Shown here one piece after another: positions 21,028 through 32,979 of a stretch of 64,000 nt of DNA; position 1 is the stretch's first letter; every line of letters begins with the position of its first letter. The notes below the pieces were generated by a model. That model was not told where the DNA came from. It saw nothing but the letters and a program-made list of their open reading frames with translations, and ran no database searches. Both the position numbers and the translations under genes were made by a program. Source of the stretch: an uncultured Eubacteriales bacterium (GTDB lineage Bacteria; Bacillota_I; Bacilli_A; RF39; UBA660); assembly GCA_905188025.1 (NCBI GenBank), contig CAJJKI010000007.1:9703-73702 (forward strand), read 5' to 3'.

Positions 21028-22899
21028 ATGAAAAAGGTAAAAAAAGTAATGACTAAAAAAACTGTGCGGACTATATTATTTATAATTTTAGACATATTAG
21101 CACTAACAATATGCTCTCTCTTAGCAATAGCTACACGCTTTGATTTTTCAGATATACCTAATATGTATATTGATAATATTTATAATTATCTTTTAATTGA
21201 TAGTATCATCCTTATATGTATTTTCAAATTATATCGTATCTACAAAAACATTTGGTCATATGCTTCAATTAATGAACTTATAAGTATTATTTTTGCATGT
21301 ACTTCATTTGAAATAGTTGAGTATATTTATAAGTTAATATTTGATATAAAGCTGCCTCGTAGTTATTATCTAATTAAGTTAATTCTTATGTATATCTTTA
21401 TATCAGCTATTAGATATTCTTATCGTATAGCTAGAACACTAAGAGATTATTACCAAGAAAAAAGTGGCTTAAATAATACTATGATTATCGGAGCTGGAGA
21501 AGCCGGTCGTATGCTTTTAACTGAAATGTCTAATAATAAAAATAATTTTAGTAATAAAGTATGCTGTGTAATTGATGATGATAAAAATAAAATAGGTAAT
21601 TATATTAAAGGTATCCCTATCGTAGGAAATCGCAAGACCATTGAATATAATGCCGAAAAATATAATATTAGTGAAATAATTATTGCTATGCCATCTATTA
21701 GTAGAGAAAAGTTAAATCTAATTATAGATGAATGTCAAAAAACAAAATGTACTATCAAAACTTTGCCAAGTCTAAGTGAATTAGTGGGTAAACCTACAAT
21801 GAAAAAAGTAAGACCACTTACGTATGAAGACTTCTTAGGAAGAAAAGAAATAGTCGTAGACATAAAAGCTATATCATCCCATCTTGAAGGAGCAAGGGTA
21901 ATTGTTACTGGTGGTGGTGGTTCAATAGGTAGTGAATTATGTCGTCAAATAGCTAAATGTAATCCTGAAGAATTAATTATTTTTGATATATACGAAAATA
22001 ATGCTTATGATATAGAACAAGAACTAATAAGAAATTATCCCAAGTTAAATCTTAAAACAATTATTGGTTCAGTAAGAGATTATGATAGATTAGAGAACGT
22101 TTTTAAAGAGTATCATCCAGAATATGTCTTTCATGCAGCAGCACATAAACACGTTCCATTAATGGAGTTTAGTCCCAATGAAGCTATTAAAAATAACTGT
22201 TTAGGAACTTTAAATACAGTTAAAATAGCCGATAAATACAAAGTTAAAAAATTTGTTTTAATCTCATCAGATAAAGCAGTAAGACCCACTAATGTCATGG
22301 GAGCTACTAAAAGAATCTGTGAAATGATCATTCAAGCATATAATAAAAAATCAAAAACCGATTATGTAGCAGTAAGATTTGGTAATGTATTAGGCTCTAA
22401 TGGTTCAGTTATTCCATTATTTCTAAAACAAATAGATAGTGGTGGCCCCGTAACGGTAACCCATAAAGAAATAACTAGATATTTTATGACCATACCAGAA
22501 GCTGTATCATTAATATTACAAGCCTTTTGTTACGCCAATGGTGGTGAAATATTTGTATTAGATATGGGAGAACCTGTAAAAATATACGAATTAGCTAAAA
22601 AAATAATTCGCTATAAAGGTCTCGAACCAAATGTAGATATTCAAATCAAAATAACTGGATTAAGACCAGGAGAAAAATTATATGAAGAATTGCTCATGGA
22701 TGAAGAAGGATTGCAAAGTACTCCTAATAAATTAATTCATATAGGCAAACCAATTGCCATGGATGATGATAAATTCTTCAAAGATCTAGATAAATTAATT
22801 GAGTATTCATACAAGAATAATAAAGATATAAAAGAAAAAGTAGCTAAAATAGTAGGTACTTATAAAATAGATAAAGGAAGTAATGAAAATGAAAAATAA
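21028..22899 (+). CDS. membrane-bound UDP-sugar 4,6-dehydratase (CapD/PglF/WbpM family, Polysacc_synt_2)
   Basis: Four N-terminal TM helices followed by SDR domains with VIVTGGGGSIGSELCRQI and a YxxxK catalytic region. The ORF begins at GTG 21016 in the track. ATG 21028 has an AGGTGG RBS. Confidence 0.85.
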   Translation: MKKVKKVMTKKTVRTILFIILDILALTICSLLAIATRFDFSDIPNMYIDNIYNYLLIDSIILICIFKLYRIYKNIWSYASINELISIIFACTSFEIVEYIYKLIFDIKLPRSYYLIKLILMYIFISAIRYSYRIARTLRDYYQEKSGLNNTMIIGAGEAGRMLLTEMSNNKNNFSNKVCCVIDDDKNKIGNYIKGIPIVGNRKTIEYNAEKYNISEIIIAMPSISREKLNLIIDECQKTKCTIKTLPSLSELVGKPTMKKVRPLTYEDFLGRKEIVVDIKAISSHLEGARVIVTGGGGSIGSELCRQIAKCNPEELIIFDIYENNAYDIEQELIRNYPKLNLKTIIGSVRDYDRLENVFKEYHPEYVFHAAAHKHVPLMEFSPNEAIKNNCLGTLNTVKIADKYKVKKFVLISSDKAVRPTNVMGATKRICEMIIQAYNKKSKTDYVAVRFGNVLGSNGSVIPLFLKQIDSGGPVTVTHKEITRYFMTIPEAVSLILQAFCYANGGEIFVLDMGEPVKIYELAKKIIRYKGLEPNVDIQIKITGLRPGEKLYEELLMDEEGLQSTPNKLIHIGKPIAMDDDKFFKDLDKLIEYSYKNNKDIKEKVAKIVGTYKIDKGSNENEK

Positions 22900-24016
22900 T
22901 AAAAAAATTTATTTAGCCTCTCCCCATATGATGGGAAATGAATTGAAGTATGTCAAAGATGCCTTTGATACTAACTGGATAGCTCCTCTAGGGCCATATG
23001 TAAATAAATTAGAAGATGATTTCAAAGAATATATGGGCTTACCCGGAGCCACAGCTTTAGCTAGTGGAACAGCAGCATTGCATTTAGCCATGAAATTAGC
23101 TGGAGTAGGAGAAGGAGATTATGTTTTTTGTTCATCCCTAACATTCTCTGCTAGTGCTAATCCAATCGTATATGAAAATGCTACTCCAGTATTCATTGAT
23201 TCTGAACCTGGTAGTTATAATATGAGCCCTGTAGCTTTAGAAAAAGCTTTTGAAAAATATACTCCCAAAGCTGTAGTAATAGTATCATTATATGGTATGC
23301 CAGCTACTATGGATAAGCTTATAAAAATATGTAAAAAACATAAAGTAACTATCATTGAAGATGCCGCAGAATCCTTAGGAGCAACTTATAAAGGACGTTT
23401 AGTAGGAACTTTTGGTGATTACAATATCATTAGCTTTAATGGTAACAAAATAATTACTACTTCAGGAGGAGGAATGCTCCTAACAAAGAAAGAAAAAGAT
23501 GCCAAAAAAGCTTTATTTTGGGCAACACAAGCTCGTGAACCAGCTAGATACTATCAACATAAAGAAATTGGCTACAATTATCGTATGTCTAACGTCTCAG
23601 CAGCCATCGGCTGTGGCCAATTTGAATGTCTAGATAAAAAAATAAAAATGAAACAAGATATCTTTAATCGCTATGTTGAAGCTTTTAAGGATATTCCAGA
23701 AATAGAAATGTTAAGTGAAGACAAAGATAGAGTATCTACTCACTGGTTAAGTATAATGAAATTAAACAGTTCAAAGATTACTCCTAATGATATTATAGAT
23801 GCCCTAGATAAGGAAAATATTGAATCACGTCCAATATGGAAACCTATGCACATGCAACCAGTATTCAAAAAATGTCCTTTCTTTAATCACAACAAAAAAG
23901 GCATCTCCGTATCAGAAGAATTATTTAATACCGGAGTATGTTTACCAAGTGATACAAACATGAATAAAAAAGAACAAGAAAGAGTAATAGAGATAATTAG
24001 AAATTTATTCGTATAA
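22883..24016 (+). CDS. DegT/DnrJ/EryC1/StrS-family PLP-dependent sugar aminotransferase (PglE-like)
   Basis: The fold-I aminotransferase signature is present, with the lysine region SFNGNKIITTSGGGML. Confidence 0.85.
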   Translation: MKMKNNKKIYLASPHMMGNELKYVKDAFDTNWIAPLGPYVNKLEDDFKEYMGLPGATALASGTAALHLAMKLAGVGEGDYVFCSSLTFSASANPIVYENATPVFIDSEPGSYNMSPVALEKAFEKYTPKAVVIVSLYGMPATMDKLIKICKKHKVTIIEDAAESLGATYKGRLVGTFGDYNIISFNGNKIITTSGGGMLLTKKEKDAKKALFWATQAREPARYYQHKEIGYNYRMSNVSAAIGCGQFECLDKKIKMKQDIFNRYVEAFKDIPEIEMLSEDKDRVSTHWLSIMKLNSSKITPNDIIDALDKENIESRPIWKPMHMQPVFKKCPFFNHNKKGISVSEELFNTGVCLPSDTNMNKKEQERVIEIIRNLFV

Positions 24017-24133
24017 ATAATGACAAATTATGACAAATATATAGAAAATAATTGAAATAAATGATATAATTTATTTAAGGTTGAAAATAATTAACTTGAT
24101 AGATTATATCATTTTTTAGGGAGTAAGATATTT

Positions 24134-32064: not shown

Positions 32065-32567
32065 ATATAAATATTAATAGTAATCTGACAAAATTTGCAA
32101 TGCACAAAATACAGCATTATAATCACAAAAAATATTGGAAAAGGAGAAAAGAGGTTGTAGATAACAATTCAAAAAAATCTAAATTAATAAGAATGTATTA
32201 TTTGTATTATATTAAAAAGTCAGACGCATATGGAAATGCATCGATGGGTACAGATTTAGGTAAAGGAGCATTATTTGCAACACCGCCAAATTTACCACAT
32301 CATTTGAATGGAATTATTATTTCACATTATGCGAAAATTGGTGAAAACTGTACCATCTTTCAGCAAGTAACAATTGCGGAAGGCAAAGAAAAAAAAGCAG
32401 CAACTATTGGAAATAATTGTTTAATAGGAGCTGGTGCTAAAATAATTGGAAATGTAAATATAGGAAACAATGTAAAAATTGGCGCCAACGCAGTCGTAGT
32501 AACAGATATTCCAGACAACTGTACAGCAGTTGGTGTGCCAGCAAGAATAATCAAACATGAAAAATAA
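32061..32567 (+). CDS. hexapeptide-repeat (LbH) O-acetyltransferase, CysE/WcaB-like
   Basis: Tandem hexapeptide repeats: IGNNCLIGAGAKIIGNVNIGNNVKIGANAVVV. Confidence 0.75.
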   Translation: MNININSNLTKFAMHKIQHYNHKKYWKRRKEVVDNNSKKSKLIRMYYLYYIKKSDAYGNASMGTDLGKGALFATPPNLPHHLNGIIISHYAKIGENCTIFQQVTIAEGKEKKAATIGNNCLIGAGAKIIGNVNIGNNVKIGANAVVVTDIPDNCTAVGVPARIIKHEK

Positions 32568-32979
32568 ACTATCAACAATCCTCATGTTCCTCTGGATGCT
32601 CCTAATCTTCATCATGTCATCCTTTGATGCTACTGAGTCAGCTAACCAATCTAATTTTATCGTAAACATAATTAACAATATTTTTAAAATAGAAAACATT
32701 GAATTATTAAGCTTTATAATTAGAAAACTAGCTCATTTTACTGAATATCTGATATTAGGATTCCTAACAATTAATATGCTAAATAAAAATGATATATCTA
32801 AAAAATATCTCTTATCAATACTTATATGTATAATATATGCTACTAGTGATGAAATACATCAACTATTTGTACCAGGTAGAGCATGTCAATTAATAGATAT
32901 CCTAATAGATAGTATTGGATCTATTATTGGAATATATTTATATAAATTAATTAATACTAAGATTCTAAAAAATAATTAG
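32557..32979 (+). CDS. VanZ-like family membrane protein
   Basis: 140 aa with four TM helices and an AHFTEYLILGF motif. Confidence 0.65.
   Translation: MKNKLSTILMFLWMLLIFIMSSFDATESANQSNFIVNIINNIFKIENIELLSFIIRKLAHFTEYLILGFLTINMLNKNDISKKYLLSILICIIYATSDEIHQLFVPGRACQLIDILIDSIGSIIGIYLYKLINTKILKNN

What the first reader, a model, noticed from the sequence alone, without database searches (positions are those of the whole stretch)
21028..32979. Polysaccharide operon predicted to build a repeat unit on an N-acylated 2,4-diamino-2,4,6-trideoxyhexose (bacillosamine-like) with possible amino-acid amidation
Established knowledge: the PglF-type membrane 4,6-dehydratase, DegT/PglE-type aminotransferase and small PglC-type phosphoglycosyltransferase together generate and transfer a 4-amino-4,6-dideoxy-HexNAc to undecaprenyl phosphate. 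Seen in sequence: these three genes are followed by a GNAT acetyltransferase, an ATP-grasp ligase and a CapK-like adenylating enzyme. The ATP-grasp and CapK-like enzymes are candidates for attaching an amino acid or carboxylate in amide linkage. Then come GT4, EpsG/Wzy polymerase, GT2, Wzx flippase, a hexapeptide O-acetyltransferase and VanZ. Inference: this is a Wzy-dependent heteropolysaccharide or glycan with an unusual decorated amino sugar, a good target for structural glycobiology.
Basis: partly seen in the sequence, partly recalled or inferred. Interest (0 to 1): 0.55.

Follow-up and report, generated by a model that had tools for sequence, protein, structure and literature searches.

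The report
Polysaccharide operon with acylated diamino sugar
This is a real 13-gene operon from an uncultured gut bacterium that very probably builds a surface polysaccharide starting from a bacillosamine-type diamino sugar whose second amino group carries an unusual acyl or amino-acid side chain; this is an interesting variant of known chemistry, not a new kind of system.

Summary

A conserved 284-aa gene and a strong promoter-like site lie just upstream.

The first three proteins are closest to Campylobacter PglF, PglE and PglC. The transferase carries every published signature residue of UDP-diNAcBac-specific enzymes.

No PglD-type N-acetyltransferase is present. Instead, the ATP-grasp gene belongs to a four-gene cassette: dehydratase, aminotransferase, transferase, ATP-grasp. 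That order holds in 58 of 66 informative genomes across Bacillota, Bacteroidota and Saccharibacteria.

GNAT (about 20 of 80 loci) and CapK-like (about 6 of 80) are optional add-ons next to the ATP-grasp.

My best reading is that the ATP-grasp acylates the sugar's 4-amino group, as B. cereus Pyl does in UDP-yelosamine synthesis. GNAT would then cap an amine and CapK would make a second amide, as V. cholerae VpsH does.

The acyl group is unknown, and orthology to Pyl could not be tested.

Verdict: a new variant of a known kind, of moderate interest.

The parts
20103..20131 (+). Promoter-like site (TTGACT-17-TATAAT); probable operon start
   Evidence: 11 of 12 consensus matches, the best on the + strand upstream of the cluster. 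This is a consensus match only.
20153..21007 (+). 284-aa protein with hydrophobic N- and C-terminal segments; conserved upstream partner of the cluster; function unknown
   Evidence: sequence. Only a weak Cadherin-like hit. Homologues at 51-55% identity sit directly upstream of the dehydratase in L001, L006, L007 and L009.
21028..22899 (+). PglF-type membrane-associated UDP-GlcNAc 4,6-dehydratase
   Evidence: Pfam Polysacc_synt_2 at 411 bits plus CoA_binding_3. Best PDB match is C. jejuni PglF, 5bju/5bjw, at 296-298 bits. SDK and MGxTK align with PglF (T/S)DK and MGCTKR.
22883..24016 (+). PglE-type sugar 4-aminotransferase (DegT family)
   Evidence: Pfam DegT at 324 bits. NCBIfam LegC family at 380 bits (cut-off 420). 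Best PDB matches are 1o61 and 4ztc at 309-312 bits, which I identify from memory as C. jejuni PglE.
24134..24739 (+). PglC-type small monotopic phosphoglycosyltransferase (initiating enzyme)
   Evidence: Bac_transf at 217 bits. C. concisus PglC (8g1n) at 250 bits, gapless over 1-201, 106/201 identical. G71-x-LLP75, D93-E94, P111-R-P113, Y118, Y122, W150, F154, K196 and F197 are all present (motif from PMC10186338).
24739..25284 (+). GNAT N-acetyltransferase (Acetyltransf_3); accessory gene of the cassette
   Evidence: Nearest structures are spermidine/diamine N-acetyltransferases at about 54 bits. PseH scores only 54.7 bits against a cut-off of 93.1. A GNAT lies directly upstream of the ATP-grasp in only about 14-16 of 80 loci; the GNAT family as a whole is in 21 loci.
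25256..26218 (+). ATP-grasp ligase of NCBIfam family NF009406 (PRK12767.1-5); proposed to N-acylate the 4-amino group of the UDP-sugar
   Evidence: 500 bits against a cut-off of 271. PDB 2pn1 at 47% identity, function unknown. Conserved order dehydratase, aminotransferase, transferase, ATP-grasp in 58 of 66 loci. It is the most conserved gene of the cassette (median 63% identity).
26230..27501 (+). CapK-like (PaaK-related) adenylate-forming enzyme; accessory gene that always follows the ATP-grasp
   Evidence: Precomputed PF27533 CapK_C. Weak PaaK hits. ANL motifs are intact. Homologues directly downstream of the ATP-grasp in L029, L048, L051, L077 and L078. Family size is given.
27536..28648 (+). 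GT4 glycosyltransferase (probable second-sugar transferase)
   Evidence: A GT4 gene follows the ATP-grasp (or the ATP-grasp plus CapK) in nearly all loci.
28670..29743 (+). EpsG-family membrane protein (Wzy-type polymerase)
   Evidence: Pfam EpsG at 157 bits.
29762..30763 (+). GT2 glycosyltransferase
   Evidence: Pfam Glycos_transf_2 at 137 bits.
30760..32064 (+). Wzx-type flippase (MOP family)
   Evidence: Pfam Polysacc_synt at 100 bits and Polysacc_synt_3. NCBIfam Wzx_EPS at 68 bits.
32061..32567 (+). Hexapeptide-repeat acetyltransferase of the CysE/EpsC/WcaB type (probable O-acetyltransferase; not PglD)
   Evidence: EpsC at 102 bits and CysE at 86 bits. The NeuD/PglB/VioB model matches only its C-terminal third (profile 129-202).
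32557..32979 (+). VanZ-family membrane protein; last gene of the operon
   Evidence: Pfam VanZ at 90 bits; NCBIfam vanZ_1 at 113 bits.

Best explanation
The operon encodes Wzx/Wzy-dependent synthesis of a heteropolysaccharide. Its repeat unit is probably a trisaccharide, because there is one phosphoglycosyltransferase plus one GT4 and one GT2. It is probably O-acetylated.

Assembly would start on undecaprenyl phosphate with a bacillosamine-type sugar, by these steps:
1. [quoted passage not shown]
2. The PglE-like aminotransferase converts this to UDP-4-amino-4,6-dideoxy-HexNAc.
3. There is no PglD-type acetyltransferase. Instead the ATP-grasp ligase activates a carboxylic acid as an acyl phosphate and joins it to the 4-amino group. 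[quoted passage not shown]
4. The GNAT then acetylates a free amino group on the appended acid. This implies an amino acid, most economically a dicarboxylic one such as Glu or Asp joined through its side-chain carboxyl.
5. The CapK-like enzyme adenylates the remaining carboxylate and forms a second amide (precedent: V. cholerae VpsH).
6. The PglC-like transferase moves the decorated sugar phosphate to the lipid carrier.
7. GT4 and GT2 extend the unit, the CysE/WcaB-like enzyme O-acetylates it, Wzx flips it and the EpsG-family protein polymerises it.

Shown here: gene content, homologies, signature residues and synteny.

Inferred: all chemistry after the aminotransferase, the order of the tailoring steps, and the identity of the acid.

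My sub-probabilities:
- Wzx/Wzy polysaccharide initiated with a PglF/E/C-made 4-amino sugar derivative: 0.9.
- ATP-grasp acylates N4: 0.65.
- The acid is an amino acid that the GNAT caps: 0.4.
- CapK makes a second amide on that side chain: 0.3.
For: 1. Closest solved relatives of the first three enzymes are PglF, PglE and PglC. The transferase has all the signature residues of UDP-diNAcBac-specific PGTs and a full-length C-terminus.
2. No PglD-type enzyme is present. The only hexapeptide protein lacks the PglD N-terminal domain and scores best as CysE/EpsC.
3. Eighty genome loci were found with the ATP-grasp alone as query. Of the 66 with enough upstream DNA, 65 have the PGT, 63 the aminotransferase and 59 the dehydratase on the same strand within 6.5 kb. 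Fifty-eight have the order dehydratase, aminotransferase, PGT, ATP-grasp.
4. The link between ATP-grasp and a 4-aminotransferase also holds for distant subfamilies at 33% identity. One is a Priestia plasmid (aminotransferase, PGT, ATP-grasp). The other is an E. coli plasmid on a dTDP-sugar background (RmlB, RfbA, DegT, GNAT, PLP enzyme, ATP-grasp).
5. At least five loci with visible operon boundaries (L020, L052, L061, L072, L078) have no detectable GNAT or hexapeptide acetyltransferase within 10 kb. There the ATP-grasp is the only candidate N-acylating enzyme.
6. Genes next to the ATP-grasp in other loci are amine- or amino-acid-directed: GNAT, a formyltransferase, and a PLP enzyme of the ACC-deaminase/D-cysteine-desulfhydrase family. 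This fits an appended group that carries an amino-acid head.
7. Precedents from papers: Pyl (PMC11626204; reference title in PMC8987622) and VpsH (PMC13463779).
8. Tight gene spacing, with promoter-like sites flanking the cluster.
Against: - No biochemical data exist for any member of NF009406. PDB 2pn1 has no assigned function.
- The B. cereus Pyl sequence could not be retrieved, so orthology is untested. No B. cereus-group protein appeared among the top 120 hits of three searches. B. cereus also has a different gene order: dehydratase, Pat, BC5272, epimerase, PGT.
- The transferase's complete diNAcBac signature would equally fit a plain 4-N-acetyl sugar, which a GNAT could make. PseH and WecD are GNATs that acetylate 4-amino sugars (my own knowledge).
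- Many Lachnospiraceae loci have a distant GNAT homologue at the 5' end of the operon and a formyltransferase downstream. Absence of other N-acyltransferases is therefore not general.
- Close ATP-grasp relatives (73-80% identity) sit beside different accessory sets. I cannot yet fit this into one chemical scheme.
- The window has no uronic-acid gene. The VpsH precedent, which amidates a sugar carboxylate, therefore does not transfer directly.
Confidence: 0.6

Rival explanations
1. The GNAT is the functional PglD or PseH analogue. It N-acetylates the UDP-4-amino sugar to give ordinary UDP-diNAcBac, or its galacto isomer, which the PglC-like enzyme transfers. The ATP-grasp and CapK-like enzymes act elsewhere, for example amidating carboxyl groups of uronic acids supplied by genes outside the cluster. 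C. jejuni capsule ATP-grasp amidoligases (my own knowledge) and V. cholerae VpsH work this way.
For: The PGT carries the complete UDP-diNAcBac signature. The GNAT has weak PseH similarity (54.7 bits). Most Lachnospiraceae loci with the cassette also encode a UDP-sugar 6-dehydrogenase. VpsH amidates a uronic acid on a lipid-linked intermediate.
Against: The PseH score is below the family cut-off of 93.1, and the nearest structures are polyamine acetyltransferases. The window has no UDP-sugar dehydrogenase, and neither do most non-Lachnospiraceae loci. The ATP-grasp stays with the aminotransferase and PGT when the GNAT is absent; at least five complete loci have no acetyltransferase at all. Distant ATP-grasp subfamilies are also tied to DegT aminotransferases, not to dehydrogenases.
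Confidence: 0.2
2. The ATP-grasp is a true Pyl orthologue. It ligates 2-oxoglutarate, the co-product of the aminotransferase, to give a yelosamine-type or bacillosamine-type 4-N-(2-oxoglutar-5-yl) sugar. The GNAT and CapK-like enzyme modify other parts of the repeat unit, or a reduced or transaminated form of the side chain.
For: Pyl is the only characterised ATP-grasp enzyme in this genomic setting. The B. cereus locus has the same parts: BC5274 dehydratase, BC5273 Pat, BC5272, and BC5270 PGT. The high conservation of the ATP-grasp (59-89% identity) across very different loci suggests one ubiquitous acid substrate.
Against: A 2-oxo acid offers no amine for the adjacent GNAT or for formyltransferases. 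No reductase or second aminotransferase lies in the window cluster. No B. cereus-group homologue appeared in the top hits.
Confidence: 0.15
3. The ATP-grasp and CapK-like genes are housekeeping genes that lie in the cluster by accident. The first sugar is then a simple HexNAc or a free 4-amino sugar.
For: None beyond NCBIfam's uninformative product name, 'carbamoyl phosphate synthase-like protein'.
Against: Synteny holds in 58 of 66 loci across phyla. The CapK-like gene always lies directly after the ATP-grasp. Genes are tightly spaced or overlapping within one operon.
Confidence: 0.02

Closest known systems
Campylobacter pgl pathway for UDP-N,N'-diacetylbacillosamine (PglF, PglE, PglD, PglC)
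   Same: The dehydratase, aminotransferase and small monotopic PGT are the closest solved relatives (297, 312 and 250 bits). The PGT is 53% identical and carries the aromatic box and GxLLP signature. The dehydratase keeps the (S/T)DK and MxxxK catalytic pattern.
   Different: There is no PglD-type acetyltransferase. A GNAT, an ATP-grasp ligase and a CapK-like enzyme stand in its place. The glycan is polymerised (EpsG/Wzy plus Wzx) rather than transferred to protein by PglB. The host is a low-GC Gram-positive-type bacterium.
Bacillus cereus ATCC 14579 UDP-yelosamine pathway (Pat aminotransferase plus Pyl ATP-grasp ligase; locus BC5263-BC5279)
   Same: A membrane dehydratase, a 4-aminotransferase, an ATP-grasp enzyme and a small PGT lie in one polysaccharide operon. 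The ATP-grasp replaces the usual N-acetyltransferase and acylates the 4-amino group of a UDP-sugar with ATP.
   Different: The gene order differs: in B. cereus the ATP-grasp lies before an epimerase and the PGT. To my knowledge B. cereus has no adjacent GNAT or CapK-like gene. The sugar there is galacto (FucNAc4N) and the acid is 2-oxoglutarate. Sequence relatedness of the two ATP-grasp enzymes could not be measured here.
Vibrio cholerae VPS tailoring enzymes VpsH (CapK-like) and VpsG (WcaB-like acetyltransferase)
   Same: A CapK/PaaK-like adenylate-forming protein and a hexapeptide O-acetyltransferase sit in a Wzx/Wzy exopolysaccharide cluster. VpsH is genetically required for amide-linked glycine (PMC13463779).
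   Different: VpsH acts on the carboxyl group of GulNAcA. The window encodes no uronic-acid pathway. Sequence similarity to VpsH was not measured.
PDB 2pn1 (Exiguobacterium 'carbamoylphosphate synthase large subunit', a structural-genomics entry) and NCBIfam NF009406
   Same: Same ATP-grasp family: 47% identity over the full length, and 500 bits against a cut-off of 271.
   Different: No function has been assigned to either, so membership gives a fold but not a reaction.
Bacillus subtilis eps operon EpsC/EpsN/EpsM/EpsL (diNAcBac-initiated biofilm exopolysaccharide; my own knowledge, not checked here)
   Same: It is a Gram-positive Wzx/Wzy-type EPS initiated by a PglFEDC-like module. An EpsG-family polymerase and VanZ-like or acetyltransferase accessory genes are typical of such loci.
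   Different: B. subtilis uses a PglD-like acetyltransferase (EpsM). It has no ATP-grasp or CapK-like enzyme.

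Membership tests
Pgl-type UDP-diNAcBac module (PglF/PglE/PglD/PglC) | Membrane-type retaining UDP-GlcNAc 4,6-dehydratase with the (T/S)-D-K and M-x3-K catalytic pattern | tested here: met
   The match to PglF (5bju/5bjw) is 296-298 bits. 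Query ISSDKAVRPTNVMGATKR aligns with PglF ISSDKAVRPTNIMGCTKR (5bjw; I take this to be a T-to-S variant).
Pgl-type UDP-diNAcBac module (PglF/PglE/PglD/PglC) | DegT-family 4-aminotransferase of PglE type | tested here: met
   1o61/4ztc at 309-312 bits, far above PseC-, WbpE- or ArnB-type structures. NCBIfam LegC family at 380 bits, just under its cut-off of 420. The C4 stereochemistry of the product cannot be read from sequence.
Pgl-type UDP-diNAcBac module (PglF/PglE/PglD/PglC) | PglD-type (NeuD/PglB/VioB family) left-handed beta-helix 4-N-acetyltransferase with an N-terminal nucleotide-sugar-binding domain | tested here: not met
   The only hexapeptide protein (168 aa) matches TIGR03570 over profile positions 129-202 only (65.6 bits against a cut-off of 160.8). 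It scores better as EpsC/CysE.
Pgl-type UDP-diNAcBac module (PglF/PglE/PglD/PglC) | Small monotopic PGT with the UDP-diNAcBac signature: aromatic box Y118/Y122/W150/F154/F197, GxLLP at 71-75, untruncated C-terminus | tested here: met
   All residues are present, the protein is 201 aa, and the alignment to C. concisus PglC is gapless. The published HMM (score cut-off 200) was not available to run.
UDP-yelosamine-type pathway (B. cereus Pat/Pyl) | ATP-grasp gene in one operon with a UDP-HexNAc 4,6-dehydratase, a 4-aminotransferase and a small PGT | tested here: met
   The order is conserved in 58 of 66 loci.
UDP-yelosamine-type pathway (B. cereus Pat/Pyl) | Sequence orthology of the ATP-grasp to Pyl (BC5272) | not testable with these tools
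   The JBC paper is not held. No B. cereus protein was returned.
UDP-yelosamine-type pathway (B. cereus Pat/Pyl) | 2-oxoglutarate as the acyl substrate, with ADP-forming ligation to the 4-amino group | not testable with these tools
   This needs enzyme assays.
NCBIfam NF009406 (PRK12767.1-5, ATP-grasp 'carbamoyl phosphate synthase-like protein') | Whole-protein score above the curated cut-off | tested here: met
   500.2 bits against 271. The sister subfamilies NF009405 and NF009404 score below their cut-offs.
CapK / PaaK-like adenylate-forming enzymes (ANL superfamily) | P-loop motif (T/S)SG(S/T)TGxPK, the YxxGD motif and a C-terminal catalytic Lys; CapK_C domain | tested here: met
   TSGSTGTPLK, RYDIGD and a C-terminal ...NGKYRTIK are present. 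PF27533 CapK_C is on identical proteins. PaaK structures match at 46.5 and 31.5 bits.
CapK / VpsH-type uronic-acid amidation | A uronic acid in the repeat unit, indicated by a UDP-sugar 6-dehydrogenase gene in the locus | tested here: not met
   tblastn of a UDP-sugar dehydrogenase against the whole window found nothing. Searches found no such domain in the cluster. A gene elsewhere in the genome cannot be excluded.
Wzx/Wzy-dependent polysaccharide pathway | Initiating PGT, glycosyltransferases, a MOP-family flippase and a polytopic polymerase in one locus | tested here: met
   Bac_transf, GT4, GT2, Polysacc_synt and EpsG. No chain-length regulator or LCP ligase was found in the cluster.

The most novel reading that the evidence does not exclude
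The cassette of dehydratase, aminotransferase, PGT and ATP-grasp may be one of the commonest initiating modules of surface polysaccharides in gut Bacillota, above all Lachnospiraceae. It also occurs in Bacteroidota and Saccharibacteria. It would make a so far undescribed family of 4-N-(aminoacyl or dicarboxylyl) bacillosamine-type sugars.

In this window the trio of GNAT, ATP-grasp and CapK-like enzyme would build a two-amide, peptide-like side chain on N4: an N-acetylated dicarboxylic amino acid that is further amidated. This would be a glyco-amino-acid structure with no characterised counterpart. It would sit at the reducing end of every repeat unit of a human-gut commensal capsule.
Probability: 0.3. 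Interest if true: 0.6.

Novelty: new variant of a known kind. Interest (0 to 1): 0.4.

Why it matters
Surface glycans of uncultured gut commensals are almost uncharted, and their first sugar determines which enzymes, phages, antibodies and lectins recognise them.

This work links an uncharacterised but very widespread ATP-grasp family to the bacillosamine pathway. The family has thousands of metagenomic members and a solved structure (2pn1) without a function. The link gives a concrete, testable reaction: ATP-dependent N4-acylation of a UDP-4-amino sugar.

It also flags GNAT, a PLP enzyme, a formyltransferase and a CapK-like enzyme as interchangeable tailoring modules. If confirmed, this would:
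- assign a function to NF009406;
- extend the substrate map of small phosphoglycosyltransferases;
- add new zwitterionic or peptide-decorated sugars of possible immunological relevance.

It would not overturn current understanding.

Tried and rejected
1. **Retrieving B. cereus Pyl (BC5272) to test orthology.** The paper is not held. Three protein searches, using the window protein, the 2pn1 sequence and the Cerasibacillus homologue, returned no B. cereus-group protein. A tblastn of plasmids gave only relatives at 34% identity or less. Other papers gave locus tags and gene order only.
2. **Finding a known O-antigen chemistry for the E. coli cassette of GNAT, PLP enzyme and ATP-grasp.** The cassette occurs only on four plasmids and never at a chromosomal O-antigen locus, so no serogroup or structure could be linked.
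3. **Literature searches.** A search for CapK with ATP-grasp found nothing. PMC4000134 (an ATP-grasp in a nonulosonic-acid or flagellar glycosylation context) and PMC7725333 proved irrelevant.
4. **Considered and rejected: the hexapeptide protein as a PglD analogue.** It lacks the N-terminal domain.
5. **Considered and rejected: a legionaminic or pseudaminic acid pathway.** The aminotransferase is near the LegC family, but the window has no nonulosonic acid synthase or CMP-transferase.
6. **The PGT-ATP-grasp fusion protein P0185.** It is recorded but given little weight. It occurs on a single short contig, and the two genes normally overlap, so a one-base error could create it.
7. **The aggregated Pfam scan of 64 unassigned ORFs.** It lists only the top 25 families, so it is only indirect evidence that acetyltransferases are absent. 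A local HMM search supplemented it.

Full report
**Observation**

The region 21028-32979 holds twelve co-directional ORFs that overlap or are separated by 35 bases or fewer. The one exception is a 117-base gap before the transferase gene.

- a Polysacc_synt_2 dehydratase with an N-terminal membrane-type (CoA_binding_3) domain;
- a DegT aminotransferase;
- a 201-aa Bac_transf phosphoglycosyltransferase;
- a GNAT;
- an ATP-grasp protein (PylC-like_N plus ATP-grasp_3);
- a 423-aa protein with no hit in the local Pfam copy;
- GT4, EpsG, GT2, a Polysacc_synt flippase, a hexapeptide transferase and VanZ.

The 423-aa protein is CapK-like. Identical proteins in the public collection carry the precomputed PF27533 CapK_C domain. 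It has weak PaaK-family hits in NCBIfam and PDB. Its adenylate-forming motifs are intact: TSGSTGTPLK, RYDIGD and a C-terminal ...NGKYRTIK.

I extend the unit upstream. A 284-aa gene (20153-21007) has hydrophobic ends and a homologue directly upstream of the dehydratase in every related contig. It is preceded by the best promoter-like site of the region, 20103-20131. A second site of equal quality follows VanZ.

**Source organism**

The window has about 28% G+C. The whole cluster is 99-100% identical on at least eight human-gut metagenome contigs.

The nearest genome in the species-representative collection is an uncultured Bacilli MAG, with 89% identity for the ATP-grasp.

The same cluster occurs with two different upstream flanks. 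Identity drops inside the 5' part of the dehydratase gene and in VanZ. This points to recombinational exchange of the cluster between related lineages.

**Fine-grained comparison of the first three enzymes**

- **Dehydratase.** The catalytic domain is closest to C. jejuni PglF (5bju series, 296-298 bits). It is well ahead of CapD/Pen (189 bits), FnlA-like, CapE and PseB/FlaA1 (152-170 bits). It keeps the SDK and MGxTK pattern that aligns with the PglF catalytic residues.
- **Aminotransferase.** It is closest to 1o61 and 4ztc (309-312 bits), which I identify from memory as C. jejuni PglE. Other sugar aminotransferases of known structure (QdtB, ArnB, WbpE and similar) score about 133 bits or less, and perosamine synthases about 236 bits.
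- **Transferase.** It aligns without a gap over all 201 residues with C. concisus PglC, at 250 bits and 106/201 identical residues. It has every feature that Anderson et al. (PMC10186338) found to mark UDP-diNAcBac-specific enzymes: aromatic box Y118, Y122, W150, F154 and F197; G71-x-L-L-P75; the D93-E94 dyad; PRP; K196; and an untruncated C-terminus.

The initiating module is therefore Pgl-like. The substrate of the transferase is very likely a 2-acetamido-4-acylamido-2,4,6-trideoxyhexose. Whether C4 is gluco or galacto cannot be read from sequence.

**What replaces PglD**

No PglD-type enzyme is present.

The only hexapeptide protein is 168 aa. It matches only the C-terminal third of the NeuD/PglB/VioB model and scores best as EpsC/CysE/WcaB-like. 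It is therefore probably an O-acetyltransferase.

The candidates for modifying N4 are the GNAT and the ATP-grasp.

The ATP-grasp belongs to NCBIfam NF009406 (500 bits against a cut-off of 271). That family has only a placeholder name. Its closest structure is the function-less structural-genomics entry 2pn1, at 47% identity.

**Comparative genomics**

I searched one genome per species with the ATP-grasp alone. The search returned 80 loci at 59-89% identity. They come mostly from Lachnospiraceae, but also from other Clostridia, Bacillaceae, Tissierellia, Peptococcales, Bacteroidota and Saccharibacteria.

Of the 66 loci with at least 5.5 kb upstream, these genes lie on the same strand within 6.5 kb:

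| Gene | Loci (of 66) |
|---|---|
| PglC-like transferase | 65 |
| Aminotransferase | 63 |
| Dehydratase | 59 |
| All three, in the order dehydratase, aminotransferase, transferase, ATP-grasp | 58 |

The ATP-grasp is the best-conserved gene of the four. Its median identity to the window protein is 63%, against 50-57% for the others. The partner transferases share the diNAcBac-type signature. A GT4 gene follows almost everywhere.

The GNAT and the CapK-like gene are accessory:
- A GNAT lies directly before the ATP-grasp in only about 14-16 loci. The GNAT family as a whole is found in 21 loci.
- A CapK-like gene occurs in L029, L048, L051, L077 and L078, and always directly after the ATP-grasp.

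Other genes found beside the ATP-grasp:
- a PLP enzyme of the ACC-deaminase/D-cysteine-desulfhydrase family, in 27 loci;
- a formyltransferase;
- a PGA_cap protein.

Five loci with visible operon boundaries (L020, L052, L061, L072, L078) have no detectable GNAT or hexapeptide acetyltransferase within 10 kb.

Distant ATP-grasp subfamilies, at 33% identity, are also tied to DegT aminotransferases:
- A Priestia plasmid has aminotransferase, PGT, ATP-grasp and a HAD hydrolase.
- An IS-flanked fragment on E. coli IncR plasmids has RmlB, RfbA, Wzx, DegT, GNAT, a PLP enzyme, ATP-grasp and a glycosyltransferase. This is the same tailoring trio on a dTDP-sugar background.

**Mechanism**

What stays constant is the pairing of a 4-aminotransferase with an ATP-grasp. 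The simplest reading is that the ATP-grasp acylates the newly made 4-amino group.

B. cereus Pyl does exactly this. [quoted passage not shown]

The B. cereus locus contains the same parts: BC5274 dehydratase, BC5273 Pat, BC5272, BC5271 epimerase and BC5270 PGT.

The accessory genes are all directed at amines or at alpha-amino-acid head groups: GNAT, formyltransferase and the PLP enzyme. I therefore infer that in this family the appended acid carries an amino group. The most economical case is a dicarboxylic amino acid joined through its distal carboxyl. N-acetyl-aspart-4-yl and glutam-4-yl substituents are known on other 4-amino sugars (my own knowledge).

In the window:
- the GNAT would acetylate that amine;
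- the CapK-like enzyme would adenylate the remaining carboxylate and form a second amide.

The only functional precedent for a CapK-like protein is genetic. V. cholerae VpsH is required for adding glycine to GulNAcA on the lipid-linked disaccharide, next to a WcaB-like O-acetyltransferase (PMC13463779). The window encodes no uronic-acid pathway. This is why I place the CapK substrate on the side chain.

The remaining steps are standard: PGT, then GT4, then GT2, O-acetylation, Wzx and an EpsG-type polymerase.

**Caveats and rivals**

The main rival is that the GNAT makes ordinary UDP-diNAcBac and that the ATP-grasp and CapK-like enzymes amidate carboxyl groups elsewhere.

- In favour: the transferase's complete diNAcBac signature, and the UDP-sugar dehydrogenase in the Lachnospiraceae operon.
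- Against: the GNAT scores below the PseH cut-off, and its closest structures are polyamine acetyltransferases. The ATP-grasp stays with the amino-sugar genes where no acetyltransferase or dehydrogenase is present.

My claim that other N-acyltransferases are absent is not general. Many Lachnospiraceae loci carry a distant GNAT homologue at the operon's 5' end and a formyltransferase downstream.

Orthology to Pyl remains untested. Its sequence could not be obtained, and no B. cereus-group protein appeared in three searches.

Close ATP-grasp relatives (73-80% identity) sit beside different accessory sets. No single chemical scheme yet explains this.

**Comparison with what is known, and verdict**

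The locus works like a Pgl/Eps-type bacillosamine-initiated Wzx/Wzy system in which a Pyl-like ATP-grasp replaces the PglD step.

- It meets the tested defining features for PglF, PglE and PglC, for NF009406, for ANL/CapK-type enzymes and for a Wzx/Wzy pathway.
- It fails the PglD feature.
- It fails the uronic-acid feature of the VpsH-type reaction.

The GNAT and CapK additions have no characterised counterpart. I therefore rate it a new variant of a known kind.

A specialist would not be surprised by the architecture. Imperiali's group has already noted ATP-grasp genes near one cluster of small PGTs. What makes it a reasonable target is the breadth of the cassette in gut bacteria together with the complete lack of biochemistry for the family.

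Interest: 0.4.

Noticed in passing
window 6319-6499 (+): 6S RNA gene (Rfam RF00013, 67.6 bits, full length). It is the only Rfam family hit in the window, and no tRNA genes were found.
   Followed up: no
window 20153-22000 and 32557-32979; loci L001-L008: The cluster is 99-100% identical on contigs with two different upstream flanks. One flank has the SLT, HTH and 284-aa genes, as in the window. The other has S16, KH, ftsA, ftsZ and a 303-aa gene. Identity falls to 90-95% in the 5' part of the dehydratase, to 51% in the upstream gene and to 91-94% in VanZ. This looks like recombinational exchange of the cluster between related lineages. In the window, ftsA and ftsZ lie at 58694-61017 on the minus strand.
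   Followed up: partly
L004 13415-14496; L002 and L003 17521-17724: In some otherwise identical contigs the EpsG polymerase gene is split (86 + 274 aa) or VanZ is truncated to 67 aa. These may be strain-level inactivations or assembly errors.
   Followed up: no
L090 (E. coli plasmid NZ_LR890610) 2074-10948; also NZ_CP045280 and two more plasmids: An IS-flanked O-antigen-like fragment on small IncR plasmids encodes an epimerase, RmlB, RfbA, Wzx, DegT, GNAT, a PLP enzyme (ACC-deaminase/D-cysteine-desulfhydrase family), an ATP-grasp (NF009404 subfamily) and a glycosyltransferase. This is the same tailoring trio as in several Bacillota loci, but on a dTDP-sugar. It is found on plasmids only, in 4 of 5426 E. 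coli genomes.
   Followed up: partly
L014-L088 (about 50 Lachnospiraceae loci), e.g. L030 1-20751: A long, highly conserved operon surrounds the cassette. Its order is: (GNAT), GT2, DUF6020, an 853-aa protein of unknown function, dehydratase, aminotransferase, PGT, (PLP enzyme), ATP-grasp, GT4, UDP-sugar 6-dehydrogenase, a 459-aa protein of unknown function, an epimerase/decarboxylase-like protein, a GT10-like protein, a formyltransferase, (DUF2334), GT4, GT4, DUF6020. This is probably a major uncharacterised surface polysaccharide of gut Lachnospiraceae.
   Followed up: partly
27 of 80 loci, e.g. L063 9064-9996 and L014 8997-9950: A PLP-dependent enzyme of the D-cysteine-desulfhydrase/ACC-deaminase/cysteate-sulfo-lyase family lies directly upstream of the ATP-grasp. 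Its role in amino-sugar tailoring is unexplained.
   Followed up: partly
protein P0185 (538 aa, one 4.4-kb metagenome contig): An apparent fusion of a PglC-like PGT (residues 8-190, 51% identity) with the ATP-grasp (residues 214-530, 53% identity). It is either a natural fusion supporting functional coupling or a frameshift artefact of two overlapping genes.
   Followed up: partly
window 33051-36253 (+): Three ORFs directly after the operon (224, 650 and 130 aa) have no Pfam or NCBIfam hit. The first has its own promoter-like site (32998-33026) and a terminator-like hairpin (33801-33826).
   Followed up: no
window 52001-54000: The lowest G+C of the window (20.5%) lies here, next to a 292-aa ORF with a weak WG_beta_rep hit and a P-type ATPase gene. 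It was not examined further.
   Followed up: no
window 26230-27501; protein library: The CapK-like family is far more divergent than the ATP-grasp family. The nearest 50%-identity cluster is at 48% identity. Among 1.84 billion representatives there are 342 clusters at E of 1e-30 or lower and 3011 at E of 1e-10 or lower.
   Followed up: no
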